Origin: Saccharolobus solfataricus
GTDB lineage: Archaea; Thermoproteota; Thermoprotei_A; Sulfolobales; Sulfolobaceae
Assembly (NCBI RefSeq): GCF_900079115.1
Contig: NZ_LT549890.1
Coordinates: 1,980,001 to 2,012,000 of the forward strand
Direction: 5' to 3'
DNA: 32,000 nucleotides
Of this stretch, positions 5,916-30,111 are shown piece by piece. The translations under genes were made by a program, and so were the position numbers. Each line of letters opens with the position of its first letter. Positions within the stretch are counted from its first letter, which is position 1. The notes under the pieces were generated by a model that ran no database searches, was not told the DNA's origin, and saw only the letters and a program-made list of their open reading frames with translations.

Positions 5916-6161
5916 GGACTATCCATCCCATAGGGGTTTGGGCTTCATAGGATTTCATGATATTTCATCTCAATCCTCAGCCCTTGGGCTTCACCAAAGT
6001 CACGGACGTTCATCCCTCTCCGCCCCATTAGCGGAATAACCCCAACCCACACCCGTGAACGGATGTGAGGAAATCCGCACATCCTGTATCTCAACACCAG
6101 CCTTTCGGGATACGAACCCACATTTGGTGGTGCGTCATCAGATTATATTATATGTGTTTTT
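5916..6161 (+). ncRNA. candidate structured RNA / GC-rich repeat family, copy a
   Basis: TATA-like tttaaatata at 5906-5915 lies directly 5' of it. The body is GC-rich with perfect local stems, e.g. ggatgtg(6061-6067)/cacatcc(6078-6084). A T5 run follows at 6157-6161. The 5' part aligns with 19421-19470 and 26220-26260. The overlapping 72-aa ORF (6055-6273) looks non-coding. Confidence 0.3.
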
Positions 6162-6177
6162 CATATTATCCTATATA

Positions 6178-6211
6178 AACTTTACGGTTTATCGGAAACC
6201 GTTGGCAACGG
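6178..6211 (+). repeat. 34-nt double-hairpin boundary motif, copy a
   Basis: AACTTTACGGTTTATCGGAAACCGTTGGCAACGG. Stems ACGGTTT/AAACCGT and CCGTTG/CAACGG. 32/34 identical to the reverse complement of 22002-22035 and 29/34 to 20897-20930. Confidence 0.7.
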
Positions 6212-12225: not shown

Positions 12226-12598
12226 GCCTTTGCAGTGTACGGTACTCCCAAAATCATTTTACAAATGTAAATTCAATAAAGATTATCATATTATTTCCTA
12301 AAATATAAGAAAATTTATCCTATTACACCTATTATTGATTACCTAAAATTCAATTATATGTATCCAATAATATAAATAAAATGAAATTTCTTCGAATCTA
12401 ATGCTATTTTTGATATATTAATATTAATTAATACTTTTTATGTTAACTATTATAAAAAGACATTGTTGTGATACTAAGATTTTCCATAAATTTTTATAGA
12501 ATTGAGTAAGATAACCGTATAATGCGCTATAATTAGTTATTAACGGAAAACTATTATTTTTAATAATACGATTTTGGATCTACCGAGAAGGGGCGAGG
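12226..12598 (+). mobile_element. about 373-bp non-autonomous element with ISC1217-type termini, copy A
   Basis: Ends ..gtacggtactcccaaaatcattttacaaa and gattttggatctaccgagaaggggcgagg match both ends of the IS at 17253-18469. The interior is AT-rich, has no ORF, and aligns with the reverse complement of 25584-25978. Confidence 0.6.
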
Positions 12599-12711
12599 CT
12601 TTCAACATTTTGTAAATCTTTGAGTATAAACTTATTCTTGAGAACGGTATATTTTGGGATATTTACCCATTTACCCAACATCTCCCTAAAATAGATAATG
12701 TGATTACCAAA

Positions 12712-12980
12712 AGGATAAAGATATTTTAAGTCTTTCAGATAGTGATTGCCCCGTCATACTCAAGATGAAAGCTGATATGAAATGGTAGAAGGGTGCATGG
12801 CTCATAAGCTCTAGAATCCTATCGTCCTTAACATTAGCGTAAGCTATTCCCAGGGCCGCAGAGATTTTATCTATATAAAATAGGCAATCGCCTTCTGCGA
12901 GAACTTCATTTATTATATTAAATAGAATATCTGGCTTGTCCGCTAACCTATGAAAGAGATCCCAATTTCAATTTTCACGT
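12712..12980 (-). pseudogene. 3' part of an IS-disrupted paralogue of the 387-aa gene at 24197-25360
   Basis: Colinear with 24205-24474 and clearly diverged, about three quarters identical by eye. Ends at the IS junction. Confidence 0.7.
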
Positions 12981-14209
12981 GAGAGTGTCCGGAATGTAAA
13001 AAATTGAATTTTTATTGGCAAGAATAAATTGGTTTCTAGTATTATCTTGGATTAAATTGGAGTAACACTTAAGTTATGGGAGTAGAGGGTAGTACCATGG
13101 CAAGAACATTAAGACACATACCAAACCTGATGTACTACCCTCTTCCCCCAATAGAGGATATGCCGTGGAGGGAAAAATGGTTAACGGAGATCAAGCCCGT
13201 GCTGGACGCCATGGATTTGGAGAGGGTCCTTGGCGAGGGCGCGCTGGTTTACCTGAAGTTGTTAATCGTCATGGTGCTCTATTCCTGCTCCTATAGGGAC
13301 GCGGTGAAAATGGTCAACGTGAACGTGGTCGTGGCCTGGTTCGTGGGGAGGAAGGTGGGGAAGAGCACGCTGCACGACTTCGTGGGCAGGTTGTACGGGG
13401 TGAGGAAGAAGTTGTTGGAGATTTCCTTCAAGCTTGAGGAGAAGTGCCTACCCAGTTACCTCCCTGCGAGCGCGCATCTCGTGGACTTCATGGCGTGGCT
13501 AGTGGACTCCTTCCTACTGGACTTACCTCCTGGGAAGAGGAGCGTGGAGACCTTTCGGGAGAAGGCGGAGCTGGAGAGGAGGGAAGGTAACTTGGAGAGG
13601 GCCGGGAAGCTGCTCTCCCTGGGGAGAACCAAGAGGAGGTTCGAGGGAAGGTGGACCAAGAAGAGAGGGGTCTCGCACTACGGGCTCAAGGCAGTGGCCG
13701 TGATCTCCGTCTCCCTCTTCGTGAGGTCCATCACGTTGAAGCCAGCCAACTTCTCGGACAAGAGGTTCAAGTCACCGCTCAAGGGGATTAAGATCGCGGA
13801 CAGGGGATTCTCTCCCTCCCCGACACAGCTCATAGCGCGGGAGAAGCCCTTCACTACCCTGAGGGCCCACGTGGAGTTCTTCGGCACCTACCTGAACGCG
13901 TTCTGGAGGCCCTACGGGACTACGACTTGGAGGAACGACGTCTTCCTTCACGTCCTGGGAGTGATCTACAACATCAAGATATTCCTCGCGATCCAACGGA
14001 GGACTCCTCCAGAACGTAGAGCCGTTCAGCTCTGAGACGCACCTCCTCGCGATCAGACAACGCTATGCGCGATAGGTAAATCCTCTCGTCTTGATATTTT
14101 TCCATTATAAAGTTTTTCTCGGTGATCCAGGTCCTATCCTTCTGGCAATATTAATATTTATCATTCTGTTTATCTATTCGTTCAGATAATTACATTCCGG
14201 ACACTCTCT
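12981..14209 (+). mobile_element. IS5-family insertion sequence, 1229 bp under this boundary choice (size fits the name ISC1229; identity not verified)
   Basis: Terminal IR gagagtgtccggaatgta (12981-12998) versus tacattccggacactctc (14191-14208). cgt is duplicated at 12978-12980 and 14210-12. Removing the element restores ttttcacgttacctttt, which matches the intact paralogue ttttcacgtcacctttt at 24466-24482. Confidence 0.8.
13076..14035 (+). CDS. IS5-family DDE transposase
   Basis: 319 aa. N-terminal DUF772-like LVYLKLLIVMVLYSCSYRDAV..VVAWFVG. Candidate DDE residues in WLVDSFLLD, IKIADRGF and AHVEFFGTY. The ORF is conspicuously GC-rich compared with its own AT-rich IS ends. Confidence 0.85.
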   Translation: MGVEGSTMARTLRHIPNLMYYPLPPIEDMPWREKWLTEIKPVLDAMDLERVLGEGALVYLKLLIVMVLYSCSYRDAVKMVNVNVVVAWFVGRKVGKSTLHDFVGRLYGVRKKLLEISFKLEEKCLPSYLPASAHLVDFMAWLVDSFLLDLPPGKRSVETFREKAELERREGNLERAGKLLSLGRTKRRFEGRWTKKRGVSHYGLKAVAVISVSLFVRSITLKPANFSDKRFKSPLKGIKIADRGFSPSPTQLIAREKPFTTLRAHVEFFGTYLNAFWRPYGTTTWRNDVFLHVLGVIYNIKIFLAIQRRTPPERRAVQL

Positions 14210-14575
14210 CGTTACCTTTTGACTTCTGAAAGGCTTCCAAAGCAATGTCTAAGTATCTTTCCTTTTTAGTGTATGCATAAGCTGTATTAGCGGAAAGTGC
14301 GTATAGCATAATATTCGTACCTTTATCTCCATGTTTAATCCTCTCTATACTATCAATTAACTTGTCAACCTCGTCAATTTCATTGAAGATGGAGTGATAG
14401 CTCACTAACGAGTGAGCGGAGAAATAGAATTCATAGTCATATTTCTTTAAGCCTTCCCTTAAACTCTCCACGAACTTCTCGCTTTCTTTAATTCTTCCTA
14501 GACCTCTTAATGCCACTGCCAAAGTATAATTATTTAGAATTTTCTCCGTTTTTTCTCTTTTATACGTTAAATAAT
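14210..14575 (-). pseudogene. middle part of the IS-disrupted, 5'-truncated paralogue of the 387-aa gene
   Basis: Colinear with 24472-24837. The ORF-track entry 14190-14522 runs into the IS end. Homology stops at about 14561-14575, so about 190 N-terminal codons are missing. Confidence 0.7.
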
Positions 14576-17252: not shown

Positions 17253-18469
17253 CCTCGCCCCTTCCAGCGATAGACCCAAAATCATCTTACAAAAATAATT
17301 CTGATTGAACAATATTAAATTTGTTAAACATAACCAAGTTTATAACAACATTAAGAATTCAAGAAATTGGAAAAAAGGTTTAAAGCGAGAAAATCGGTAT
17401 TACCATAAGGGTTTACGGTATGCCAATTCCCTCATTAAACATTCAACAAATAGTGTATAAATTACTTTCCATGATTAACTTCCACGGGAGGAAGGGAGAG
17501 GAAGCTACAAAAACCTCGGTCTCAGCATCATTACACAACGATTCAGTGGAAAAACGTTTCCAAAGCTTACAACGTATCACCACAAACAGTGAGGAATTAC
17601 GTTGAAGAACAAGGATTACAAGTAGTGGAAAAATACTGGAATAAGTGAAACAAATCTCACTCGAAACGCTTAAGGACGTGAAGGAGATAGATCTATCATT
17701 AGATTGGACAACTTGGTACGGAAAACTTGTAGAAGGTTTGGGAAGCTCAGAAAAGGGATACTCGTGGAACTACACAACAACGACGAAATACGAGGGAAAA
17801 ATCCTCATACTCGCCTTCATACCGCAAGTTAATGACAAAGGATGAGATTGTCAAGATCTTGATTGAACAAGTGGTTGCAATGGGATTTAGGATTAAACTG
17901 ATAGCACTTGATGCAGGATTTTACACGGTTGAGGTGATAAAATTCATATCCCAGTTCAACTACATTATTGGAGTTCCCGTTAGTGATGTCAAGATCTACG
18001 AGGAGTTTGATGGTGAATATGTTACGAATAGTAAGAGGCGTAGTAAGGGTGAGCAGGTTAAATTTAGGCTGATCGTGTATAGGGAGAAGATCAAGAGGAA
18101 AAAGAAGGAGGTTGTTTACTTCGCCAGGGGTACAAATCTCGATTTACCCAAGAATAAGGTCTTGGAGTAACAAGGTGAGGAATCCGATAGAAACGTCTTA
18201 TAAGAGTGTTAAATCGTTCCTCCCCTTTACGTGTTCAACAAAGTTCATTTTCCGCATGTTAATCTTCTTACTTGACGTGCTCGTTTACTCCTTGTACACT
18301 ATCCTCAAGGATAACGTGAAAATGAGGACTTTCAAATCACTAATTTCAAAAAATATTGAAAATATATCTGAGATAGAGATTTATTTAAGTAAATTGGAGG
18401 AAACGCTTACTAATACTACAGGTTTATTTTTAAGGAGGTGATTTTTGGGAGTACCGGTTAGGGCGGGGT
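17253..18469 (+). mobile_element. ISC1217-type insertion sequence (1217 bp under this boundary choice, ends +/- 3 bp) with a frameshifted transposase
   Basis: Ends cctcgccccttccagcgatagacccaaaatc and gatttttgggagtaccggttagggcggggt are imperfect inverted repeats. Four consecutive ORF pieces (17420-17605, 17645-17845, 17832-18170, 18112-18441) together span one transposase-sized gene in different frames (..LIALDAGFYTVEVIKF..). Confidence 0.75.
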
Positions 18470-18567
18470 AGCTCACAGATATATAAACCCTATGAAAGTC
18501 TGATCCCTATTTCGAATGCAGATATTCCTAAAATAAGTCCATAATAATATATGGCCAATAAGTGCTA

Positions 18568-18855: not shown

Positions 18856-19420
18856 AGGAAAACCCTGCTGGAGGACGACCTAAGCTCATTGCCCCTATCA
18901 TTAGCACTATGACCATTGCTATACCACCCAGGATTCCACCTATTATAGAGGAAATTATAATATTTTTGCTCTGAGATTTTCTTTCTTATTATCCATTTAT
19001 CTTCACATACTCTAAACTTAATAATTGAACATACACAATAATTTCTTCATTGGATTATCCTAATTCATACTAGAAATTTTCACAATTAGTCGTTTTAATC
19101 GAGATGTAGCTAAGGAATTAGAACGTGAAAAAACGGCCTCTGAAAAAGGTTTATGTGAGAAGGTTATGAAATCTTTTTGTGGTAGTACTAGAATGAACCT
19201 CGTAAGCCCTTTCACATAAGCTTTTCTAAAATAATGTCTTTGTTAAAATTTCTATATCTTAAACGTTAAACGAGCGTTTTTCCATACTACTCCAATATTT
19301 TTACAAACGTTTTTTGAATTTCATGACTGTTTGAGAACACTCCCAAAAAACAAGCTTAATATATTTATGTTACATTAGTACTAACCGTGTCATACGACAT
19401 TGCTGAGGAATTTTTGAGGA

Positions 19421-19600
19421 AGGGGTCGGACTTTCATTGAGGTTTCATGAATTTGTATTCAACCCCTCGTCCTCATACCCCTTATTTTCCTCCCCATGCC
19501 GTCTACGGGACTAACTCCCTTCAAGGACATGGGGAGTTTCATTGGGTGCCTTCCTCCCCCTCACATTGCTCACAGAGTTCATTGTGGCACCCTCTAACTT
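19421..19600 (+). repeat. GC-rich structured repeat, copy L (left arm of the inverted pair)
   Basis: Perfect stems aggggt(19421-26)/acccct(19462-67), ctccccatg(19490-98)/catggggag(19528-36) and gggtgcc(19544-50)/ggcaccc(19586-92). Aligns with the reverse complement of 21735-21915. Confidence 0.7.
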
Positions 19601-19616
19601 AATGTTAGCATGAAAG

Positions 19617-19624
19617 TTTATAAA
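19617..19624 (+). promoter_or_regulatory. TATA box (tttataaa, preceded by aaag) for the AbrB-like/TnpB-like genes
   Basis: Centred about 27 nt upstream of the ATG at 19647, the usual spacing for leaderless Sulfolobus mRNAs. Confidence 0.4.
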
Positions 19625-19646
19625 TTTTAATGCTTCTAACATTCTT

Positions 19647-19811
19647 ATGGAGCAAATAGTTTTCAGATCAACGGTCTCAAGTTATGGTACAGATAAGTAT
19701 GGGAATAAAAGATATGGCATAACAATACCTTCAAAACTAAGGGATAAGGGTGAGAAATTATACGGCAAGGAGGTGATTGTAATTGTTATCCTACCAGATG
19801 ATGAGGAGTAA
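19647..19811 (+). CDS. 54-aa SpoVT/AbrB-like (swapped-hairpin) small protein, absent from the ORF track
   Basis: MEQIVFRSTVSSYGTDKYGNKRYGITIPSKLRDKGEKLYGKEVIVIVILPDDEE. The GITIPSKLR...GKEV.V.V pattern is typical of AbrB/MazE/VapB-type DNA binders. It overlaps the next gene's ATG by 14 nt. Confidence 0.5.
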   Translation: MEQIVFRSTVSSYGTDKYGNKRYGITIPSKLRDKGEKLYGKEVIVIVILPDDEE

Positions 19812-20892
19812 ATTAATAGGGTCTAAGGAAGCACTTGATAACTTTCAATTCGTCACAATAAACGGTAAAGTGATTTTCAACGAGAAAGACAAGGTTGTTA
19901 GGATTGCTAGGGTTTACTCACAAGTTGTTAAGAGTGCTATTAAACCGTTGTTTGATGGGAAGAGTGTTGATGAGTTAACTAAGGAGTTTTATAATGTTTT
20001 ACCTAACTATGTTTATCTTGAAACTGCTTTAAAGCAAGCTAAGACAATTGTTGAGGGTTTGTTAGAAAGGGAGGAAGAGAGGGGTGAGATAATTCATGCA
20101 AGGATTAGAAAGTTCTGGTTTGGGAGTAGGGGTAATAAAAGTGATAGGGGTAATAGGAATATGAAGTTCCGCGTTTTAGAAGACCGCGTGTTAATTAAGG
20201 TTAGAGACCCGTGGAATAAGGAGTGGATTTTTGGGAAAGCTTATTTCGGTAAGGAGTACTTACCACTGCTTAAGGAGTTGGAGGATTTAGCTCAAAGGAA
20301 GGAGGAGGGTTACGGTGCTTTAGTAAGTTTTAAGGAAAAGTCGATGATTCACCTTCAAATCCCACTCTGGTTGTACTTGAAACACTTCTCTTTACCGAAG
20401 CCTACGGGTTACGGTTTGATTGCTGGTTTTGATTTAAATAGTGACAGACTGAACGTTGTTGTGATTAACAAAGATGGTAAAGTTATTACTACTAGAACTT
20501 TTTGGTATTCAGATGTTACTAGGCCAGGTTTTCCGAAAGTGAAAGCTAGGGCTTTACGGTTAAACGCTTTATCTAACTCCCTGGAGTTCCTATCAAGGAT
20601 TGGTGTTGATTACGTCGTTTTTGAGGATTTATTCCTAGTTAAGAGGAGGAAGTTTATCAAGAGTAAAAGTGGTAATAGGAAGATTAGCAAATTTGCTAAG
20701 AAGCAGTTACTAATTCACGGTGTTATTAAATCTTTAAGGTTTGGTTTTAACGTCGTGTTGGTCAATCCTAAGGGTACTACTAACTCTGGGGAGCATGATA
20801 GGGTAATGAGGGAAAAAGGGTTTGACAAGCATACGGCATCAGCTTACTTAATAGCATTAAAAGGGTTAGGAATGTTGAATGATATTAAATGA
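19798..20892 (+). CDS. tnpB: TnpB-like RuvC-fold protein (IS200/IS605 OrfB lineage) without the usual zinc finger
   Basis: About 364 aa from the ATG at 19798 (the ORF track starts at TTG 19783). RuvC-like motifs IAGFDLNSDRL, YVVFEDL and VNPKGTTNS....FDKHTASAYLIALKG. No CxxC pairs lie between the last two motifs. Confidence 0.75.
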   Translation: MMRSKLIGSKEALDNFQFVTINGKVIFNEKDKVVRIARVYSQVVKSAIKPLFDGKSVDELTKEFYNVLPNYVYLETALKQAKTIVEGLLEREEERGEIIHARIRKFWFGSRGNKSDRGNRNMKFRVLEDRVLIKVRDPWNKEWIFGKAYFGKEYLPLLKELEDLAQRKEEGYGALVSFKEKSMIHLQIPLWLYLKHFSLPKPTGYGLIAGFDLNSDRLNVVVINKDGKVITTRTFWYSDVTRPGFPKVKARALRLNALSNSLEFLSRIGVDYVVFEDLFLVKRRKFIKSKSGNRKISKFAKKQLLIHGVIKSLRFGFNVVLVNPKGTTNSGEHDRVMREKGFDKHTASAYLIALKGLGMLNDIK

Positions 20893-21277
20893 CATGAACT
20901 TCACGACTTATCGGAAACTGTTGACAACGGCAAAGGATTACTTAAAAGCTTCCGAACTGTCATTTGAGCACAACCTTTATGAAGCCTCAGCATTAAACAG
21001 TGAAATTTCAGCCCAACTCTCCTTAATTTTCAAGTTAGGAATAGAGCCTCCCCGAACTCACGGGATTAGAGAGTTACTTTCATTAATATACGCGAAACTT
21101 GGAGATAAAAGGATAAGTGACTTTACGAAGGAGAATAGAGAAAAACTCATTATTCTAGAGAACGTGAGAGGAAAGTCACAGTACGGTTTACCTCCAGTGT
21201 CTAGGGACGAGGCTGAAATAGCTTTAAGTACTGCGCAGGAAATACTAAAACTTGTAGAATCATTATGGAACCTATAG
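20879..21277 (+). CDS. HEPN-domain protein (toxin-like partner of MNT)
   Basis: 132 aa. AKDYLKASELSFEHNLYEASALNSEISAQL...PPRTHGIRELL fits HEPN. The start may be ATG 20894 (MNFTTYRK). Overlaps the tnpB stop and the MNT start. Confidence 0.8.
   Translation: MILNDMNFTTYRKLLTTAKDYLKASELSFEHNLYEASALNSEISAQLSLIFKLGIEPPRTHGIRELLSLIYAKLGDKRISDFTKENREKLIILENVRGKSQYGLPPVSRDEAEIALSTAQEILKLVESLWNL
20897..20930 (+). repeat. 34-nt double-hairpin boundary motif, copy b (encodes HEPN codons 2-12 counted from ATG 20894)
   Basis: AACTTCACGACTTATCGGAAACTGTTGACAACGG. 29/34 identical to copy a. Similarity among the three copies ends right after CAACGG. Confidence 0.7.
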
Positions 21278-21585
21278 AGAAGATAAAGTTATTACGAAAC
21301 TGGAGGGAAGCACTTAGAAAGCTTAACCTTGAAAGATTTGAAGAAGTATATGTGTTCGGCTCTGTAGTAAGCGACAAGATAACTGGGGCAAGTGATATTG
21401 ACTTAATCTTGGTTATTAAACGGGGTGAAGATAGGAATAAAGCGCTAATAGGCTTCTTCGATGAGGTCGAGAGCAAACTAGGGGAGAAAGCATCATATCT
21501 GTTTGACGTTAAAGTAATTTATGAAGATGAGAAAGAATTACCGCCATACAAGTTCTTTCTCAGAGATGCAGTGAGAGTAAAATGA
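21265..21585 (+). CDS. minimal nucleotidyltransferase (MNT), partner of HEPN
   Basis: 106 aa. VYVFGSVVSDKITGASDIDLILV carries the GS...DxD pol-beta NTase signature. 13-nt overlap with the HEPN gene. Confidence 0.85.
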   Translation: MEPIEKIKLLRNWREALRKLNLERFEEVYVFGSVVSDKITGASDIDLILVIKRGEDRNKALIGFFDEVESKLGEKASYLFDVKVIYEDEKELPPYKFFLRDAVRVK

Positions 21586-21734
21586 CTTTGTCTGTAATAT
21601 ATTTACGTAACTTTTAGTCATTTCTAATTAACTTCTAATCCTCTTAAAGCTATTAGGTAAGTTGATGACATATGCCTATCAAGTTACCTCACGTTCATAA
21701 CCCAAAGCTTAAAATCTTTATAGTTAATTACTCA

Positions 21735-21915
21735 GAGAGTATCACTATGAACTCTATGAGCAGTTGAGAGGGGGAGGAAAGTACTCAATGAAACTCCTCA
21801 TGTCGTGATTGGGAGGTAGGCTCCCTAACCTAGGCACGGGGAGGGAGAAGAAGTGATGAGACTGAGTAACTAGTAGTAATTAAAAATAACTATTAGTTAC
21901 GATGAAAGCCGAACT
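21735..21915 (-). repeat. GC-rich structured repeat, copy R (right arm, inverted relative to L)
   Basis: The reverse complement aligns with 19421-19600. A core of about 70 nt (gacatgaggagtttcattgagtactttcctccccctc..) is roughly 80-85 percent identical by eye and the flanks are weaker. It also retains part of the downstream attttaagctt promoter-proximal sequence. Confidence 0.7.
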
Positions 21916-22001
21916 CTGTTGTACTTCCTAAGATTTTAAAAGATAAGATAGTTCATCTTAATACACAGAAGATTTTTGCGTGCTTTTTTAGGGTATTATT
22001 G

Positions 22002-22035
22002 CCGTTGCCAACAGTTTTCGATAAACCGTAAAGTT
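22002..22035 (-). repeat. 34-nt double-hairpin boundary motif, copy c (inverted)
   Basis: Reverse complement is AACTTTACGGTTTATCGAAAACTGTTGGCAACGG, 32/34 identical to copy a. It is preceded on the minus strand by ttttataaata and followed by unrelated sequence. Confidence 0.7.
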
Positions 22036-22350
22036 TATATTATTTTGCATATATATTTATAAAAGTTGAAACAATCCACAAACCATCACTTTTCTCTACT
22101 TTTTAAGATATCTCCTCACTAAGATATCAGGAGGGATATTGTTAGAGAATGCTATTCGATAAATTGTTGATTAGTATATAATGAACATCTTAAACAAGAT
22201 CCCACCCACTATTATTGCTAAAGTTATCATAAAGAGTATTTTGTAGTTCTTCAAAGAATCCCTACTTGTCATTATAGATAAGCCTAAAAGTAACGGGCGA
22301 CGGATCTATTAAATAAGCTGCTGAAAAATTTACTAGTGCCTCAAATATAA

Positions 22351-22674
22351 TCAAGATTCCCATAAAATCGTCATCAACCTTACATTATAGTTAATAAACT
22401 TAGGTAATATGCCAAAATAATATATCAACGTAGGTATTAGCTCGTAAATATAATAATGAAAAGTAACGGATGATGTTACAATTAAGTAAGCTGGCAAAAC
22501 TAAATAGAGTAAAATATGCCCGTTAAGGTAGAATGCATAGGGGAAAATTATTGATAAGAATAACATCGCGTTCTCTAAACCCTTAGCTTCTTGCGCGTAA
22601 AGTAAAAATGAAGAAGCTAGTAATGCTATTATCGAAATAGAATAAACATTGTAGATATTCACTCCATGAGCCAA
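22351..22674 (-). CDS. hypothetical small membrane protein
   Basis: 107 aa with about 3 hydrophobic helices. TTG start preceded by ggagg. No recognisable family. Confidence 0.35.
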   Translation of the reverse strand: MAHGVNIYNVYSISIIALLASSFLLYAQEAKGLENAMLFLSIIFPYAFYLNGHILLYLVLPAYLIVTSSVTFHYYIYELIPTLIYYFGILPKFINYNVRLMTILWES

Positions 22675-22957
22675 AAACCTCCAGAGATAAATAGAAAAAT
22701 GAGAGAGACAATAGCTAGAAATTGAGGCAAGTATCTACTGTATTCAGTCTCCCTTCTTATCATTACTTAAGCTCAGCATTATTTCCACTAATTGCTTTCC
22801 CTTTTCATTGAGGTTATAATATTCTTCTTCTTTTAATATTAATGGCTCAAGAATTTTTAGATGATAATTTAATCATATTATTGAGCAACGTAGCATAAGG
22901 CTCCCTAATCATATGATATGTAAATCCTAAAAATCTAATAAACGTGTCGTTTTATAC

Positions 22958-24015: not shown

Positions 24016-24196
24016 ATTTTGTAACATCAGATTAATACCACGTTAGTATTTTTAGTTTATCTCAAGATAAAAGAAATTCCCGTACTGAAGTGGACTAAGC
24101 TTAAACTAAGTTACAATGGAAAGGTTGGGAATTGCCTTGTTAAGAACGTCACTCGCATAATCCGTTATGTCTCTAAACACACATTATATAATGTAA

Positions 24197-25360
24197 TTAT
24201 ATAAAGGATAAAGATATTTTAAGTCTGTTGGATACAGATTGACCCGCCATACTCAAGATAAACTCAAAGATGAAACGATAAAAGGGAGCATTGTTCATAA
24301 GCTCTAGAATTCTATTGTCCTTAATATTGGCGTAAGCTATTCCTAGTGAACTAGAGATTTCATCTAAATAGAATAAGTAGTTACTTTCTGCGGTAATTTC
24401 ATTTATTATATTAAATAGAATATCCGGTTTGTCTACTGACTCCAAGAAAATGATCCCGACGTTAATTTTCACGTCACCTTTTAACTTCTGAAAGGCTTCC
24501 AAAGCAATGTCTAAGTATCTTTCCTTGTTAGTGTAGATATAAGCTGTATTAGCGGAAAGAGCGCGCATCATACTATTTGTGGTCTTATCTCCATGTTTAA
24601 TCCTCTCTATACTATCAATTAACTTGTCAACCTCGTCAATTTCATTGAAGATGGAGTGATAGCTCACTAACGAGTGAGCGGAGAAATAGAATTCATAGTC
24701 ATATTTCTTTAAGCCTTCCCTTAAACTCTCCACGAACTTCTCGCTTTCTTTAATTCTTCCTAGACCTCTTAATGCCACTGCCAAAGTATAATTATTTAGA
24801 ATTTTCTCCGTTTTTTCTCTTTTTACTCTTTCATTAAGCATAAGAGCGTCTTCAACCAATTCTGACCTGGCCGGTTCCTTATCAAACCTAATTGCTATAC
24901 TCCTTAGAAATTCAGAAATATTGGATTCAGTATTATAAGATGGATTATCTCTTAACAATCTCATGAAATACTCCATAGGATCATAATCCTCTAATAGGTG
25001 AGAACATTCTGCGATTACCCCCATTAAAGCTAACTTGGAATACGTAGGCTTCCTTCCACTGAGGCATTCGAGAAGAATAAGCGTATTAGAAACTAAAACC
25101 TTATCCTCAACAATTCTCTTATTTTTCTGAAGTATTATAGACATAGTATCCTTGTCTCCCATTATTAGGTAAACTTCAGCTAGTTTAACTAAGTGATCAG
25201 CAGAATGATCTCTCCTCTTTAAGATCTTATAGTACTCGTCCAGCTCATCTTTAGTTAGAATATTTTCCGAAGCTCTGTATAGATAATAATAAATCTCGGC
25301 AAATCTCCTTTCATAGGCACTTAGACCCCTTGTGAGTTCCTCAACTTCTTTGAAGTCCAT
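24197..25360 (-). CDS. all-helical repeat protein of unknown function (TPR-like)
   Basis: 387 aa with no catalytic motif recognised. A disrupted paralogue lies next to the ATPase gene at 12712-14575. Confidence 0.75.
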   Translation of the reverse strand: MDFKEVEELTRGLSAYERRFAEIYYYLYRASENILTKDELDEYYKILKRRDHSADHLVKLAEVYLIMGDKDTMSIILQKNKRIVEDKVLVSNTLILLECLSGRKPTYSKLALMGVIAECSHLLEDYDPMEYFMRLLRDNPSYNTESNISEFLRSIAIRFDKEPARSELVEDALMLNERVKREKTEKILNNYTLAVALRGLGRIKESEKFVESLREGLKKYDYEFYFSAHSLVSYHSIFNEIDEVDKLIDSIERIKHGDKTTNSMMRALSANTAYIYTNKERYLDIALEAFQKLKGDVKINVGIIFLESVDKPDILFNIINEITAESNYLFYLDEISSSLGIAYANIKDNRILELMNNAPFYRFIFEFILSMAGQSVSNRLKISLSFI

Positions 25361-25583: not shown

Positions 25584-25978
25584 CCCTGCCCTAACCGGTA
25601 GACCCAAAATCGTATTATTAAAAACAATTGCTTTCTGTTTATAACTAATGATCATGCATTATACGATTATTTTATTTAATTATATCAAAATTTATGGGAA
25701 AAATCCAGCTCTATAGTAATATTTTTTATGATTGTTTACCTAAAAAGTGTAAAATTGGTGAAATGCCCCTGGTTATTGGGTATGAACATGTATCAAAAAT
25801 AACATTAGATTCAAAGAAATTTCATTTTATTTATATTGTTAGATGGGTATAATTGTATTTTAGGTTATTAATGATAAGTACAATGGGATATGTTTTCTTA
25901 TATTTGAAGAAACAATATGATAATCTTAGCTGAATTTATATTTGTAAGACTATTTTGGGTCTACCGTAACGGACAAGG
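25584..25978 (-). mobile_element. about 395-bp non-autonomous element with ISC1217-type termini, copy B
   Basis: ccctgccctaaccggtagacccaaaatcg at the left end and attttgggtctaccgtaacggacaagg at the right. The interior aligns with the reverse complement of copy A (e.g. aatataaataaaatgaaatttctt.gaatctaatg.tatttttgata). Confidence 0.6.
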
Positions 25979-28240: not shown

Positions 28241-28352
28241 CTCAAATATTAGGAGTAAGTAAAAAAGCCTTACTATTATTATGTAGTGATCATATGATTT
28301 TGACGTAGTTTAAAGATTTTCATCAGTCCCACTATCCCTCCTAAACGCCTTT

Positions 28353-29791
28353 CAGTGGTGTTTCACCAATTTTACTCAAAATGATACAATTTCTATGGAA
28401 GAGAAAAATATCAGAGCGGAGTTAGAAAAATCGGCTTATTTCAACACAAGAAGCAAAAAATTTTCATATTTGTTGAAGAAACTAACAGAAAACGAGTTTA
28501 TATATAAAGAGTAATACCATTTGTCTAGTATTATCAATAGAGGAAAGTAGGTGGAAGGACGAGATGAACAAGAAAAGGTTAAAGCGAGGGACTCCATAAC
28601 TCCGTTATGCAAACCATACAAGTATCCAAAACGGAGCTGAAGTCCCTCGCTATAAATTTAGCAACAAACAATATTAACGTTATCTCTCAAGATCTAGACC
28701 CGGAAATAGTGAAAGCAGCACCATCCTTGCTAACCGGAAACAGAGGAAAATACTACTTGAAGGTAGTAAGACGAGGCGAGAAAGTAATTAGTAAAGGTCA
28801 GAGAACCTTCAAGTTCTACCCAATCTACAGAGAAGTAAAGGGAGAGATCAACGTAGTCGCTGTAGATGAGACCGGATTAACCGTGGGAGAAAAGGAACAA
28901 GAAAAAGCAGAGGGCTTTCTACTCTACAACTGGAAGAGAAAAGGAGTAAAGATGAGATCCTTGGACCTCGTATATCCCTTAAGGTTACCCCTCCTAGTGG
29001 AGGTAGCAGATTTGAGAAGCGACAGTCCATCACAGTTCCTACTCAGGAGCGTGAGGGAAGTAAGCCAATACATGGAAATAGATTACGTTGTAGCTGACGC
29101 CGGATTCTTGAACCTAGGGGTCATCAAGGAAATGCCCGTGAAGACCATTGTGAGAGGAAAGTCGAACTTGAAGGGATTCAAGGAACTATCTAACGTTCCA
29201 TTAGTTGAGAAGAGATACGAGGTTAAGGACAAGGTTTACGTTGCGTATAGGGTCTTGGAATTTGAAGGGCTTTATTATTACGATGTGGTTTACGTTAAGG
29301 GAAAGCCGAGGCACTTCATGTTCGTAACGAACTTCGAGGGAGATCCCTATGAACTGGCTGAACTCTATAGGTTGAGGTGGCAGGTTGAGGAGGGTTTTAA
29401 GGTTAGGAAGGCAAGGATAAGGTATGTTAGGAAGTTGAGTAATAAGATCTTCTTGTTCCTCTATTATACGGTTCTGGATTCTGCGTGGAATCTAGTGAAT
29501 CATCTTCTCTTTAACTTCAAGTCCACGTGTAAGAAGGTTTTGTCCTTCGATTCATTCGTCAAGCTTCTCTAACTTTCTCGGTGTTCAGAGGAGACTATGC
29601 ACGTCGTTTTCACCACGTGAGAAAAATTCAGAATTCTCCTCTTATTATTAGAATTGTACGCTATATTTTTTGCAAATTATTTTAACATGTTATGTTTCAT
29701 AATAATTTTATTGTTTTTCTCTATATCAATCTCTTTTTGAAAGTGCTAATATTATATCTTTCAAATGAAATAATTTGGTGAAACACCACTG
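28353..29791 (+). mobile_element. insertion sequence of exactly 1439 bp (fits ISC1439 of S. solfataricus; name from recollection)
   Basis: Perfect 17-bp terminal IR cagtggtgtttcaccaa (28353-28369) / ttggtgaaacaccactg (29775-29791). 9-bp direct repeat aacgccttt at 28344-28352 and 29792-29800. Confidence 0.85.
28607..29572 (+). CDS. DDE transposase of the 1439-bp IS
   Basis: 321 aa. VVADAGFLNLGVIKE (second D region) and YRLRWQVEEGFKVRK (the YREK-like E region typical of IS4-related transposases). Confidence 0.85.
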   Translation: MQTIQVSKTELKSLAINLATNNINVISQDLDPEIVKAAPSLLTGNRGKYYLKVVRRGEKVISKGQRTFKFYPIYREVKGEINVVAVDETGLTVGEKEQEKAEGFLLYNWKRKGVKMRSLDLVYPLRLPLLVEVADLRSDSPSQFLLRSVREVSQYMEIDYVVADAGFLNLGVIKEMPVKTIVRGKSNLKGFKELSNVPLVEKRYEVKDKVYVAYRVLEFEGLYYYDVVYVKGKPRHFMFVTNFEGDPYELAELYRLRWQVEEGFKVRKARIRYVRKLSNKIFLFLYYTVLDSAWNLVNHLLFNFKSTCKKVLSFDSFVKLL

Positions 29792-30111
29792 AACGCCTTT
29801 CAACAAACCTCAATAGCTCCCTGACGTTACTTAGATTAAGGAAGACCAATAGCTATCTCACTACATTGATGAGCACGATGAAGAAGAGTAAATGACCTAC
29901 TATATTATGTAGCCGTAGAACTGTGCTCTTAAAAAATTAAGTATAAGTTAAAGGGAATGGAGATCTTAACTAATTTCACTACTTAGGTTATATAGAGTGA
30001 GGGATTTTTGGACATAAAAGCACTGACAGTTTACTACTGTGTAAGTATTTGTGGTAGATATTCTGCTGAATTCACGTAAAATATTTAATGGTTTCTCGCT
30101 AATATTTAGTA

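What the first reader, a model, noticed from the sequence alone, without database searches (positions are those of the whole stretch)
20897..20930. 34-nt double-hairpin motif present three times, with similarity ending abruptly at the same base
Copies at 6178-6211 (+), 20897-20930 (+) and 22002-22035 (-) are 29-32/34 identical. After the terminal CAACGG the three sequences become unrelated: tgaatttt, caaaggat, caataata. The motif folds into two overlapping hairpins (ACGGTTT/AAACCGT and CCGTTG/CAACGG), and some differences between copies are G-T, that is G-U wobble compatible. In copy b it lies immediately 3' of the tnpB stop and supplies codons 2-12 of the HEPN gene. In copies a and c the position of the ATG reads ATA and no HEPN body follows. 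Comparing copy a with L+b, the two loci differ by a clean 1275-bp block (19622-20896) between ..tata and aactt... This fits either a target-specific, TSD-free IS200/IS605-type insertion or an internal deletion that generated a MITE. The motif is thus a candidate transposon right end, an omega-RNA 3' hairpin or a recombination hot spot.
Basis: partly seen in the sequence, partly recalled or inferred. Interest (0 to 1): 0.65.

Follow-up and report, generated by a model that had tools for sequence, protein, structure and literature searches.

The report
Shared end of ISC1904-family transposons
The 34-base repeat is the conserved outer end of a known family of Sulfolobus jumping genes (ISC1904, IS607 family), present here on one 1.5-kb element that has split a HEPN toxin gene, on one 279-bp miniature element and as one orphan end, so it is real but ordinary.

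Summary
The three copies exist as described, and none is expected by chance. The motif is not an IS200/IS605 right end, an omega-RNA hairpin or the start of a HEPN gene. It is the tnpA-proximal (left) end of ISC1904-type IS607-family transposons. In four Sulfolobaceae genomes the same sequence, followed by a TATA box, lies about 60 bp upstream of a serine-recombinase tnpA (closest solved structure: ISC1904 OrfA) and a tnpB. The far end is ...AAACCCC. Copy b ends a 1509-bp non-autonomous element (19422-20930). This element has the same two ends but carries a zinc-ribbon-less TnpB-like gene (SSO2105 type) in the opposite orientation. A Saccharolobus shibatae empty site shows the element inserted at a GG inside codon 12/13 of the HEPN gene, without target duplication. 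HEPN "codons 2-12" are therefore transposon sequence fused in frame. Copy a ends a 279-bp miniature element (5933-6211). Copy c is an old orphan end. In 54 independent junctions similarity stops at ACGG. The hairpins show no compensatory changes. Most likely function: the crossover dinucleotide plus transposase-binding half-sites. Side observation: SSO2105-type elements carry a covarying RNA (Sso133) that reads out of the other end.

The parts
20897..20930 (+). Motif copy b: outermost 34 bp of the 1509-bp element. Read on the minus strand (CCGTTGTCAACAG...) it corresponds to the left end of ISC1904-type elements. The terminal GG (20929-20930) is the inferred crossover dinucleotide.
19422..20930 (+). 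Non-autonomous SSO2105-type element bounded by ISC1904-type ends (GGGGTCGGAC...CAACGG). It is inserted in the HEPN gene at a GG with no target duplication.
   Evidence: Ends defined by comparison with about 40 other copies. Empty site in S. shibatae L102: GAGGAA-GG-CAAAGG.
19422..19466 (+). Other end of the element. About 45 bp are similar to the tnpB-distal (right) end of ISC1904-type elements (revcomp ...GAATACAAATTCATGAAACCTCAATGAAAGTCCGACCCC).
19422..19600 (-). Conserved structured RNA region on the strand opposite to the element's ORFs, running to the element end. It contains the Rfam Sso133 match at 19490-19552 (-).
   Evidence: Rfam 62.6 bits, E = 2.9e-10. RNAalifold on 20 copies: 12 of 32 pairs compensatory.
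19617..19624 (.). Palindromic TTTATAAA box between the RNA region and the 54-aa ORF. It is a candidate bidirectional TATA box (inference).
   Evidence: Sequence read. Conserved in the alignments.
19647..19811 (+). 54-aa ORF conserved upstream of the TnpB-like gene. No family match.
   Evidence: Also called in L019 and L021.
19801..20892 (+). SSO2105-type TnpB-like protein (363 aa from the ATG; the ORF tool starts at TTG 19783). It has a RuvC D-E-D triad and no zinc-ribbon TNB domain.
   Evidence: NCBIfam TIGR01765 4e-20. Pfam label PF27229 SSO2105_N on homologues. AlphaFold2 pLDDT 90.8, with Foldseek hits to Cas12k, Cas12f, TnpB and Fanzor2. D211 and E275 invariant, D342 nearly invariant.
19387..19423 (+). 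Displaced native 5' end of the HEPN gene (GTG TCA TAC GAC ATT GCT GAG GAA TTT TTG AGG AAG G = MSYDIAEEFLRK).
20894..21277 (+). Chimeric HEPN ORF. Codons 1-12 (MNFTTYRKLLTT) are transposon-end sequence and the rest is the native HEPN body. The ATG is ATA in every other copy seen. The body lacks 9 bp (LKG) that all full-length homologues aligned have.
21265..21585 (+). MNT-type nucleotidyltransferase, the partner of the HEPN gene.
5933..6211 (-). 279-bp miniature derivative of an ISC1904-type element: left end (copy a plus TATA box), then a tnpB 3' remnant (..CGFPHIRSRVWVGVIPLMGRRGMNVRDFGEAQGLRIEMKYHEIL*), then right end ..AAGCCCAAACCCC.
   Evidence: 92% over the left-end 39 bp and 82% over the right 150 bp to the A. 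ambivalens element L105
6178..6211 (+). Motif copy a, the left end of the 279-bp miniature element.
22002..22050 (-). Copy c: an orphan ISC1904 left end (motif 22002-22035 plus TATA-box region). No partner end was found. An orthologous, more diverged copy is present in S. shibatae.
21590..21918 (-). Degenerate miniature copy of the second SSO2105-element subfamily (ends AGAGTTCGGC... / ...TTACGTAAATATATTACAGAC). It carries a weak Sso133 match at 21778-21843 (+).

Best explanation
The 34-mer is the terminal recombination site at the tnpA-proximal (left) end of ISC1904-type IS607-family transposons. It is reused by non-autonomous relatives. Shown: autonomous elements in four Sulfolobaceae genomes read (G)CCGTYGNCAACAGTTTYCGATRARCCGTRAAGTT-TTATAT, then about 29 nt, then the ATG of a tnpA (MerR-type HTH plus serine-recombinase domain), then tnpB, then ...AAGCCCAAACCCC. 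The same two ends bound the window's 1509-bp SSO2105-type element and its 279-bp miniature element. The 1509-bp element inserted at a host GG without target duplication. Inferred by analogy with IS607, IS1535 and ISC1926 (Chen et al. 2018; Boocock and Rice 2013): a serine transposase supplied in trans by an ISC1904 copy binds subterminal sites in the motif (the imperfect inverted repeats ACGGYTT/AAACYGT and CYGTTG/CAACGG). It pairs the two ends and exchanges strands across the terminal GG/CC dinucleotide to give a circle whose junction (..CCAAAC-CC-GTTGS..) is a near-symmetric core site. The circle then integrates at another GG. That is why similarity ends at exactly the same base in every copy. 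The adjacent TATA box drives tnpA in autonomous copies, so transposase binding may also repress it. In copy b the end happens to fuse in frame to the truncated HEPN gene.
For: Motif next to the tnpA start in L016, L103 (S. solfataricus, named 'Orf in partial transposon ISC1904'), L104 (S. islandicus ISSis5) and L105 (A. ambivalens). TnpA has Resolvase plus MerR/HTH_17 domains, and TnpB has OrfB_IS605 plus TNB. The TnpA matches PDB 3ILX 'First ORF in transposon ISC1904' at E = 1.6e-75. A common second end, GGGGT(C/T)..CTTCATTGA, is seen in 43 junctions. Empty site: window 19347-19423 joined to 20921-21834 aligns as one 94%-identical stretch with S. shibatae, junction GAGGAA-GG-CAAAGG. Similarity stops after ACGG in 54 junctions with unrelated flanks. 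In metagenome loci chosen only by the protein, 42 of 73 SSO2105 homologues are followed by the motif. The miniature element a matches both ends of full elements. Literature: IS607-family termini contain GG, the unoccupied target contains GG, there are no terminal inverted repeats and no target duplication, and short subterminal motifs are bound by TnpA (PMC6188088). The ISC1904 ends carry TTG 2-4 bp from each 5' end (PMC4058570), which fits CC-GTTG and GG-GGTTTG.
Against: No ISC1904 tnpA lies in this window, so mobilisation in trans is inferred. Transposase binding to the 34-mer was not tested, and the exact binding motif could not be derived. The published ISC1904 end sequences are in a figure that could not be read, so identity with them rests on S. 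solfataricus locus L103, where the terminus reads CCTTTG rather than CCGTTG. The base after GG is C in 50 of 54 junctions, a stronger target bias than the 'minimal specificity' described for IS607. A second SSO2105 subfamily ends in ..ACAGAC without GG, so not all relatives use this site.
Confidence: 0.87

Rival explanations
1. Right end of an IS200/IS605-type element. The hairpin ACGGTTT/AAACCGT is recognised as single-stranded DNA by a Y1 (HUH) TnpA, with cleavage after CAACGG.
For: No terminal inverted repeats and no target duplication. The motif sits just 3' of a TnpB-like gene. A 7-bp stem can be drawn 9 nt from the end.
Against: The autonomous elements carrying this end encode a serine recombinase, not a Y1 transposase. 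No conserved 4-5-nt target precedes the other end. The stem pair 11-21 is broken in 11 of 24 copies, there are 0 compensatory changes, and most copies have a G-T mismatch in DNA. Folds are weak and differ between copies. The insertion overlap is exactly GG.
Confidence: 0.03
2. The motif is the 3' scaffold hairpin of an omega-RNA made from the 3' end of the SSO2105-type TnpB-like gene, with the flank after CAACGG serving as guide.
For: The position is right: 4 nt after the stop codon, at the element boundary, on the gene's strand. The protein has a TnpB/Cas12 fold with a conserved D-E-D triad.
Against: The same motif abuts tnpA 5' ends and occurs in miniature elements lacking this gene. The second SSO2105 subfamily, about 70% identical in protein, has a different sequence there. 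No covariation was found. The element's covarying RNA lies at the opposite end on the opposite strand. Dual use by the protein is not excluded.
Confidence: 0.07
3. The motif is simply the conserved 5' coding end of HEPN paralogues, and copies a and c are gene fragments.
For: In copy b it is in frame with a HEPN body, and Pfam aligns the HEPN model from residue 11 of the ORF.
Against: Seven HEPN relatives with a complete N-terminus begin MSY(N/D)IAEEFLR(K/R), or closely related sequences, up to AK(D/E/R)YL. That native 5' end lies at 19387-19423, on the other side of the insertion. The uninterrupted gene exists in S. shibatae. More than 50 other copies have non-HEPN flanks.
Confidence: 0.01

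Closest known systems
ISC1904 (IS607 family, Saccharolobus solfataricus) and its relatives ISSis5 and ISC1926
   Same: The motif plus TATA box precedes a tnpA that matches ISC1904 OrfA (3ILX) at E = 1.6e-75. The layout is tnpA-tnpB, about 1.93 kb long. Both termini have GG/CC, the target is GG, and there are no inverted repeats and no duplication (PMC6188088; PMC4058570).
   Different: None of the window's three copies has tnpA. One carries a different, inverted cargo, one is a 279-bp derivative and one is an orphan end.
IS607 and IS1535 transposon ends (Chen et al. 2018, PMC6188088)
   Same: The terminal GG exchange site, the subterminal short motifs bound cooperatively by a serine transposase with an N-terminal winged-helix/MerR domain, and low target specificity.
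   Different: The sequences are unrelated. Here the candidate sites are imperfect inverted repeats within 34 bp, rather than four phased 9-bp direct repeats. The base after the target GG is C in 50 of 54 junctions.
RNA-257 paralogues, transposon-derived ncRNAs of S. solfataricus (Martens et al. 2013, PMC3674436)
   Same: These are remnants of the distal tnpB region of ISC1904-family transposons scattered in intergenic regions. The miniature element a (5933-6211) retains exactly that region.
   Different: Whether element a is one of the named RNA-257 loci was not checked. That paper does not discuss the left-end motif.
IS200/IS605 right ends and TnpB omega-RNAs
   Same: A boundary at the 3' end of a TnpB-like gene, no inverted repeats, no duplication, and a drawable subterminal hairpin.
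   Different: The partner transposase is a serine recombinase. There is no conserved target motif, no hairpin covariation, and the motif is not tied to the TnpB-like gene.
SMN1, a non-inverted-repeat miniature element of S. islandicus (Berkner and Lipps 2007, cited in PMC3718332)
   Same: A roughly 320-bp non-autonomous Sulfolobus element said to depend on a transposase supplied in trans.
   Different: Any relation to the 279-bp or 329-bp elements here is untested.

Membership tests
IS607 family (ISC1904 group) | Transposase is a serine recombinase with an N-terminal MerR-like HTH, encoded next to the left end | tested here: met
   In related loci L016, L103, L104 and L105 the motif lies about 60 bp upstream of such a gene. 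No such gene is in the window itself.
IS607 family (ISC1904 group) | Second gene is tnpB (OrfB_IS605 plus TNB zinc ribbon), overlapping tnpA | tested here: met
   L016 1751-3046, plus L104 and L105
IS607 family (ISC1904 group) | No terminal inverted repeats | tested here: met
   Ends GGGGTCGGAC... and ...GTTGACAACGG are not inverted copies of each other
IS607 family (ISC1904 group) | No target-site duplication; the same dinucleotide (GG) is at both termini and in the empty target | tested here: met
   Occupied GAGGAA-GG-GGTC...CAAC-GG-CAAAGG versus empty GAGGAA-GG-CAAAGG in S. shibatae
IS607 family (ISC1904 group) | Subterminal short motifs bound by TnpA | not testable with these tools
   Candidate half-sites can be read in the sequence. 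15 of 34 columns are invariant and 9 more are at least 90% conserved across 24 copies. No binding data.
IS607 family (ISC1904 group) | Excision as a circle with a resealed donor | not testable with these tools
   Needs PCR or sequencing of junctions
IS200/IS605 family | Y1 (HUH) TnpA as transposase | tested here: not met
   The associated transposase is a serine recombinase
IS200/IS605 family | Conserved 4-5-nt target abutting the left end | tested here: not met
   43 junctions show only a purine preference at -1
IS200/IS605 family | Conserved subterminal hairpins at both ends | tested here: not met
   0 compensatory pairs, one stem pair broken in 11 of 24 copies, weak and inconsistent folds
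TnpB omega-RNA (for the 34-mer) | Conserved RNA structure at the tnpB 3' end that reads into the flank and is tied to the tnpB gene | tested here: not met
   Position is compatible, but there is no covariation. The motif also occurs beside tnpA and in elements lacking the gene.
HEPN gene 5' end | Orthologous HEPN genes share the encoded N-terminus | tested here: not met
   Orthologues have MSYNIAEEFLRK, against MNFTTYRKLLTT here
   AlphaFold2 pLDDT 90.8. Foldseek: Cas12k 7e-11, Cas12f, ISFba1 TnpB 5.5e-6, Fanzor2. D211 and E275 invariant, D342 at least 90% conserved.
   No cysteines in ..NPKGTTNSGEHDRVMREKGFDKH... No Pfam OrfB_Zn_ribbon/TNB hit.

The most novel reading that the evidence does not exclude
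The SSO2105-type elements may be more than dead cargo between borrowed ISC1904 ends. They may be a distinct hitchhiker class in which a zinc-ribbon-less TnpB-like protein works with a guide-type RNA (the Sso133-containing RNA). That RNA is transcribed divergently from a shared palindromic TATA box and reads out of the opposite transposon end. No TnpB, IscB or Fanzor system I am aware of is arranged this way. The 34-mer would then be the end reserved for the serine transposase, and the GGGGT end would serve both transposase and RNA.
Probability: 0.25. Interest if true: 0.6.

Novelty: already known. Interest (0 to 1): 0.25.

Why it matters
For genome annotation, three puzzling repeats resolve into mobile-element ends. 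The annotated 132-aa HEPN protein is shown to be a transposon-host chimera of a disrupted, probably decaying toxin gene. The element boundaries are fixed to the base. For transposon biology it adds a clean natural example, with occupied and empty sites, of GG-to-GG exchange by an archaeal IS607-family element. It also shows that one pair of ends serves at least three cargo types. The only part that may repay further work is the SSO2105-type cargo with its divergently encoded, covarying RNA.

Tried and rejected
1. Hairpin function. Pair counts on 24 copies chosen independently of the motif gave no compensatory change in either stem (one search used a wrong register and was repeated). Single-sequence folds were weak.
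2. Pfam and PDB sequence searches with the 369-aa protein gave nothing. NCBIfam, AlphaFold2 and Foldseek were needed.
3. The idea that Sso133 is a relic of the ISC1904 omega-RNA was dropped. The Rfam model hits only SSO2105-type elements, not ISC1904 tnpB 3' ends.
4. A search for an empty site for miniature element a, using contigs that encode the neighbouring PIN protein, failed. Both loci that span the interval keep the same 1003-bp spacing.
5. The literature gave nothing for SSO2105 or ISC1491. Berkner and Lipps 2007 and Filee et al. 2007 are not held. I therefore could not check whether the SSO2105-type element is a catalogued IS, possibly ISC1476, which one search shows contains an ncRNA.
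6. A deletion derivative (L002) and the empty site place the left boundary at 19422.
7. Three bacterial hits of the genome-wide pattern scan (L001, L011, L013) were treated as chance.

Full report
**Observation**

The three 34-nt copies are at the stated coordinates. Identities are a/b 29/34 and a/c 32/34. A 23-nt core with up to three mismatches hits only these three places in the window, with none expected from shuffles. The window is from a Saccharolobus/Sulfolobus genome. It encodes trehalose-pathway amylases, a tricorn protease, several insertion sequences and a match to the Sulfolobus sRNA Sso133. The chimeric HEPN protein occurs on contigs of up to 3.03 Mb, and close relatives of its neighbours carry Saccharolobus names.

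**What flanks the motif elsewhere**

One exact-pattern scan of 185,579 species genomes returned 15 Sulfolobaceae/Thermoprotei loci and 3 bacterial chance hits. In every archaeal locus similarity stops right after CAACGG. Inward of the motif, three kinds of sequence were seen:
- the 3' end of a homologue of the window's 369-aa ORF;
- the reverse complement of a gene start, ATGCTTAAACCTAAGGAAGTGTGCC;
- a G+C-rich stretch, ttcgggaaaacccatccacatctggtg, the kind to which copy a belongs.

BLAST of 19300-20960 against these loci showed that the element extends left to about 19421. L002 holds an internal-deletion derivative that joins 19421-19843 to 20761-20940. All three kinds share a second end, GGGGT(C/T)..CTTCATTGA.

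**Identity of the family**

In L016 the second kind is a complete element: motif, TATA box, a 194-aa protein, a 431-aa protein, then ...AAGCCCAAACCCC.
- The 194-aa protein has MerR/HTH_17 and Resolvase domains. The 431-aa protein has OrfB_IS605 and the TNB zinc ribbon.
- The 194-aa protein matches PDB 3ILX, 'First ORF in transposon ISC1904', at E = 1.6e-75.
- Its homologues are named IS607 family, ISSis5 or ISC1904 transposase.
- The same arrangement was read in S. solfataricus (L103), S. islandicus (L104, 1939 bp) and Acidianus ambivalens (L105, 1927 bp). It is (G)CCGTYGNCAACAGTTTYCGATRARCCGTRAAGTT-TATAT, about 29 nt, then ATG.

The motif is therefore the left, tnpA-proximal end of ISC1904-type IS607-family elements. 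It is immediately followed by the tnpA TATA box, about 31 nt before a start codon. That spacing is typical of leaderless Sulfolobus mRNAs (my own knowledge).

**The three window copies**

*Copy a* ends a 279-bp miniature element at 5933-6211, in ISC1904 orientation on the minus strand. It has the left end, a degenerate tnpA start, a tnpB C-terminal remnant (CGFPHIRSRVWVGVIPLMGRRGMNVRDFGEAQGLRIEMKYHEIL*) and ...AAGCCCAAACCCC. It is 92% identical to the A. ambivalens element over the left 39 bp and 82% over the right 150 bp.

*Copy c* (22002-22050) matches the S. solfataricus ISC1904 left end through TTTATATTATTTTGC and then diverges. No partner end follows. An orthologous, more diverged copy sits in conserved flanks in S. 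shibatae, so it is an old orphan end.

*Copy b* ends a 1509-bp element (19422-20930). Between ISC1904-type ends, and on the strand opposite to that of tnpA-tnpB, this element carries a 54-aa ORF and the 369-aa ORF.

**Proof of insertion, and the HEPN question**

HEPN orthologues begin MSY(N/D)IAEEFLR(K/R)AKDYL. The window protein begins MNFTTYRKLLTTAKDYL. The missing native codons (GTG TCA TAC GAC ATT GCT GAG GAA TTT TTG AGG AAG G) lie directly left of the element, at 19387-19423.

I removed the element, leaving one GG. The joined flanks then align as a single 94%-identical stretch with the uninterrupted HEPN-MNT locus of S. shibatae, with junction GAGGAA-GG-CAAAGG. Only the GG is ambiguous between element and host. 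The insertion is therefore 1507 bp at a GG, with no duplication.

HEPN 'codons 2-12' are therefore transposon-end sequence fused in frame. The ATG is ATA in all other copies listed. The HEPN body also lacks nine bases (LKG) that every full-length homologue in the alignment has. The gene is probably decaying (inference).

**Unbiased sample and structure test**

A protein-seeded scan of metagenomes gave 80 loci with homologues of the 369-aa protein. Of 73 with enough 3' flank:
- 42 have the motif 4-10 nt after the stop codon;
- 21 have a different end (..TTACGTAAAnnTGTTAYAGAC);
- 10 are divergent or damaged.

Across all loci there are 54 motif-end junctions and 43 other-end junctions with distinct flanks. 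The base after GG is C in 50 of 54. The base before GGGG is A in 26 and G in 13 of 43. Nothing else is conserved.

On 24 distinct copies from this sample:
- stem ACGGTTT/AAACYGT has 87.5% of cells paired but no compensatory change, and pair 11-21 is broken in 11 of 24;
- stem CYGTT/AACGG is 92.5% paired, also with no compensatory change;
- neither stem exceeds column shuffles.

Predicted folds are weak and differ among copies. The symmetry is thus equally or better explained as double-stranded protein-binding half-sites.

**Mechanism**

Shown: family identity, the element boundaries, the GG-to-GG insertion, and sharing of both ends by three cargo types.

Inferred: a serine transposase supplied in trans by an ISC1904 copy binds the subterminal repeats, synapses the ends and exchanges strands at the terminal dinucleotide. 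This follows the models of Boocock and Rice 2013 and Chen et al. 2018.

Read from the sequence: the predicted circle junction ..CCAAAC-CC-GTTGS.. is a near-palindromic core. This fits the 'TTG 2-4 bp from each 5' end' noted for ISC1904.

**The cargo**

The 369-aa protein has no Pfam-A hit in the local library. It matches NCBIfam TIGR01765 at 4e-20 and, weakly, TnpB models. Its homologues carry the label PF27229 SSO2105_N.
- The family is small: 224 clusters at 50% identity.
- D211 and E275 are invariant and D342 nearly so.
- An AlphaFold2 model (pLDDT 90.8) matches Cas12k, Cas12f, ISFba1 TnpB and Fanzor2.
- There is no zinc ribbon.

'TnpB-like' is therefore justified, but 'TnpB' in the strict sense is not.

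**Side finding: a covarying RNA at the other end**

The Rfam Sso133 model hits only SSO2105-type elements, in both subfamilies and always on the strand opposite to the ORFs. It does not hit ISC1904 tnpB 3' ends.

I aligned 20 copies from the palindromic TTTATAAA box (19617-19624) to the element end and folded the alignment with RNAalifold. It gave 32 pairs, 12 of them with compensatory changes. One pair joins the terminal ACCCC (ACTC in the other subfamily) to an internal GGGG (GGAG). That last covariation rests on essentially one event between two subfamilies.

This looks like a guide-type RNA reading out of the GGGGT end, but whether it works with the SSO2105 protein is untested. Transposon-derived ncRNAs from ISC1904 remnants are already described (PMC3674436). 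A circular ncRNA 'within ISC1476' is also listed for S. solfataricus, and ISC1476 may be this element.

**Verdict**

The feature belongs to a catalogued IS family and is of low novelty.

Noticed in passing
window 19422-19624 (-); also L019, L021 and about 20 metagenome loci: SSO2105-type elements carry a conserved structured RNA that contains Rfam Sso133. It lies on the strand opposite to their ORFs, between a palindromic TTTATAAA box and the very end of the element. 12 of 32 predicted pairs show compensatory changes, including pairing of the terminal nucleotides.
   Followed up: partly
window 19801-20892 (+): The 'tnpB' is a small, Sulfolobales-centred TnpB/Cas12-fold family (224 clusters at 50% identity). 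It has a conserved RuvC D-E-D triad but no zinc-ribbon TNB domain. It always lies inverted relative to the ISC1904 gene orientation.
   Followed up: partly
window 21590-21918 (-); L019, L048-L067 and others: A second subfamily of SSO2105-type elements has a homologous GAGTTCGGC.. end but a different, non-GG gene-distal end (..TTACGTAAAnnTGTTAYAGAC). A degenerate 329-bp copy sits 4 nt after the MNT stop codon.
   Followed up: partly
window 21827-22873 versus L102 1440-2517: Relative to S. shibatae, the segment holding copy c is inverted and lies on the other side of the HEPN-MNT pair. One breakpoint falls inside the Sso133-like part of the 329-bp element, which suggests a rearrangement between repeated elements.
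   Followed up: no
window 18477-18506 (-) and 17268-18477: A fourth fragment of the GGGGT-type end (GGGATCAGACTTTCATAGGG) is cut off by another insertion sequence of about 1.2 kb with terminal inverted repeats (CGGTAsnCCCAAAA..).
   Followed up: no
L016 818-1135 (-) and its reconstructed empty site: A full ISC1904-type copy in Sulfolobaceae RB850M also interrupts a HEPN-like gene about 12 codons in (MSLKKSEILYQE|ALKDIEIRNY..). The window insertion sits at the same relative place (MSYDIAEEFLRK|AKDYL), and the local DNA is similar (AGGA(A)GG|C..AAAGGAT). This may be target preference, tolerance of toxin-gene hits, or chance.
   Followed up: partly
54 junctions (window and loci L002-L099): The host base after the terminal GG is C in 50 of 54 independent junctions, and the base before the other end is a purine in 39 of 43. 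This is a stronger target bias (roughly A-GG-C) than the minimal specificity described for IS607.
   Followed up: partly
window 20894-21277: The HEPN ORF lacks 9 bp (Leu-Lys-Gly) that all full-length homologues aligned have. Its start codon is a position that reads ATA in every other copy of the transposon end. It is either a decaying gene or a re-started one.
   Followed up: partly
window 12238-12592 / 25589-25968; 14207-14506 / 24469-24768; 12692-12947 / 24185-24440; 28344-29800: Several other repeat families and insertion sequences are present. They include a 181-nt and a 113-nt inverted pair, a 300-nt direct pair at 94% identity, and a DDE-transposase element flanked by 29-nt inverted repeats.
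   Followed up: no
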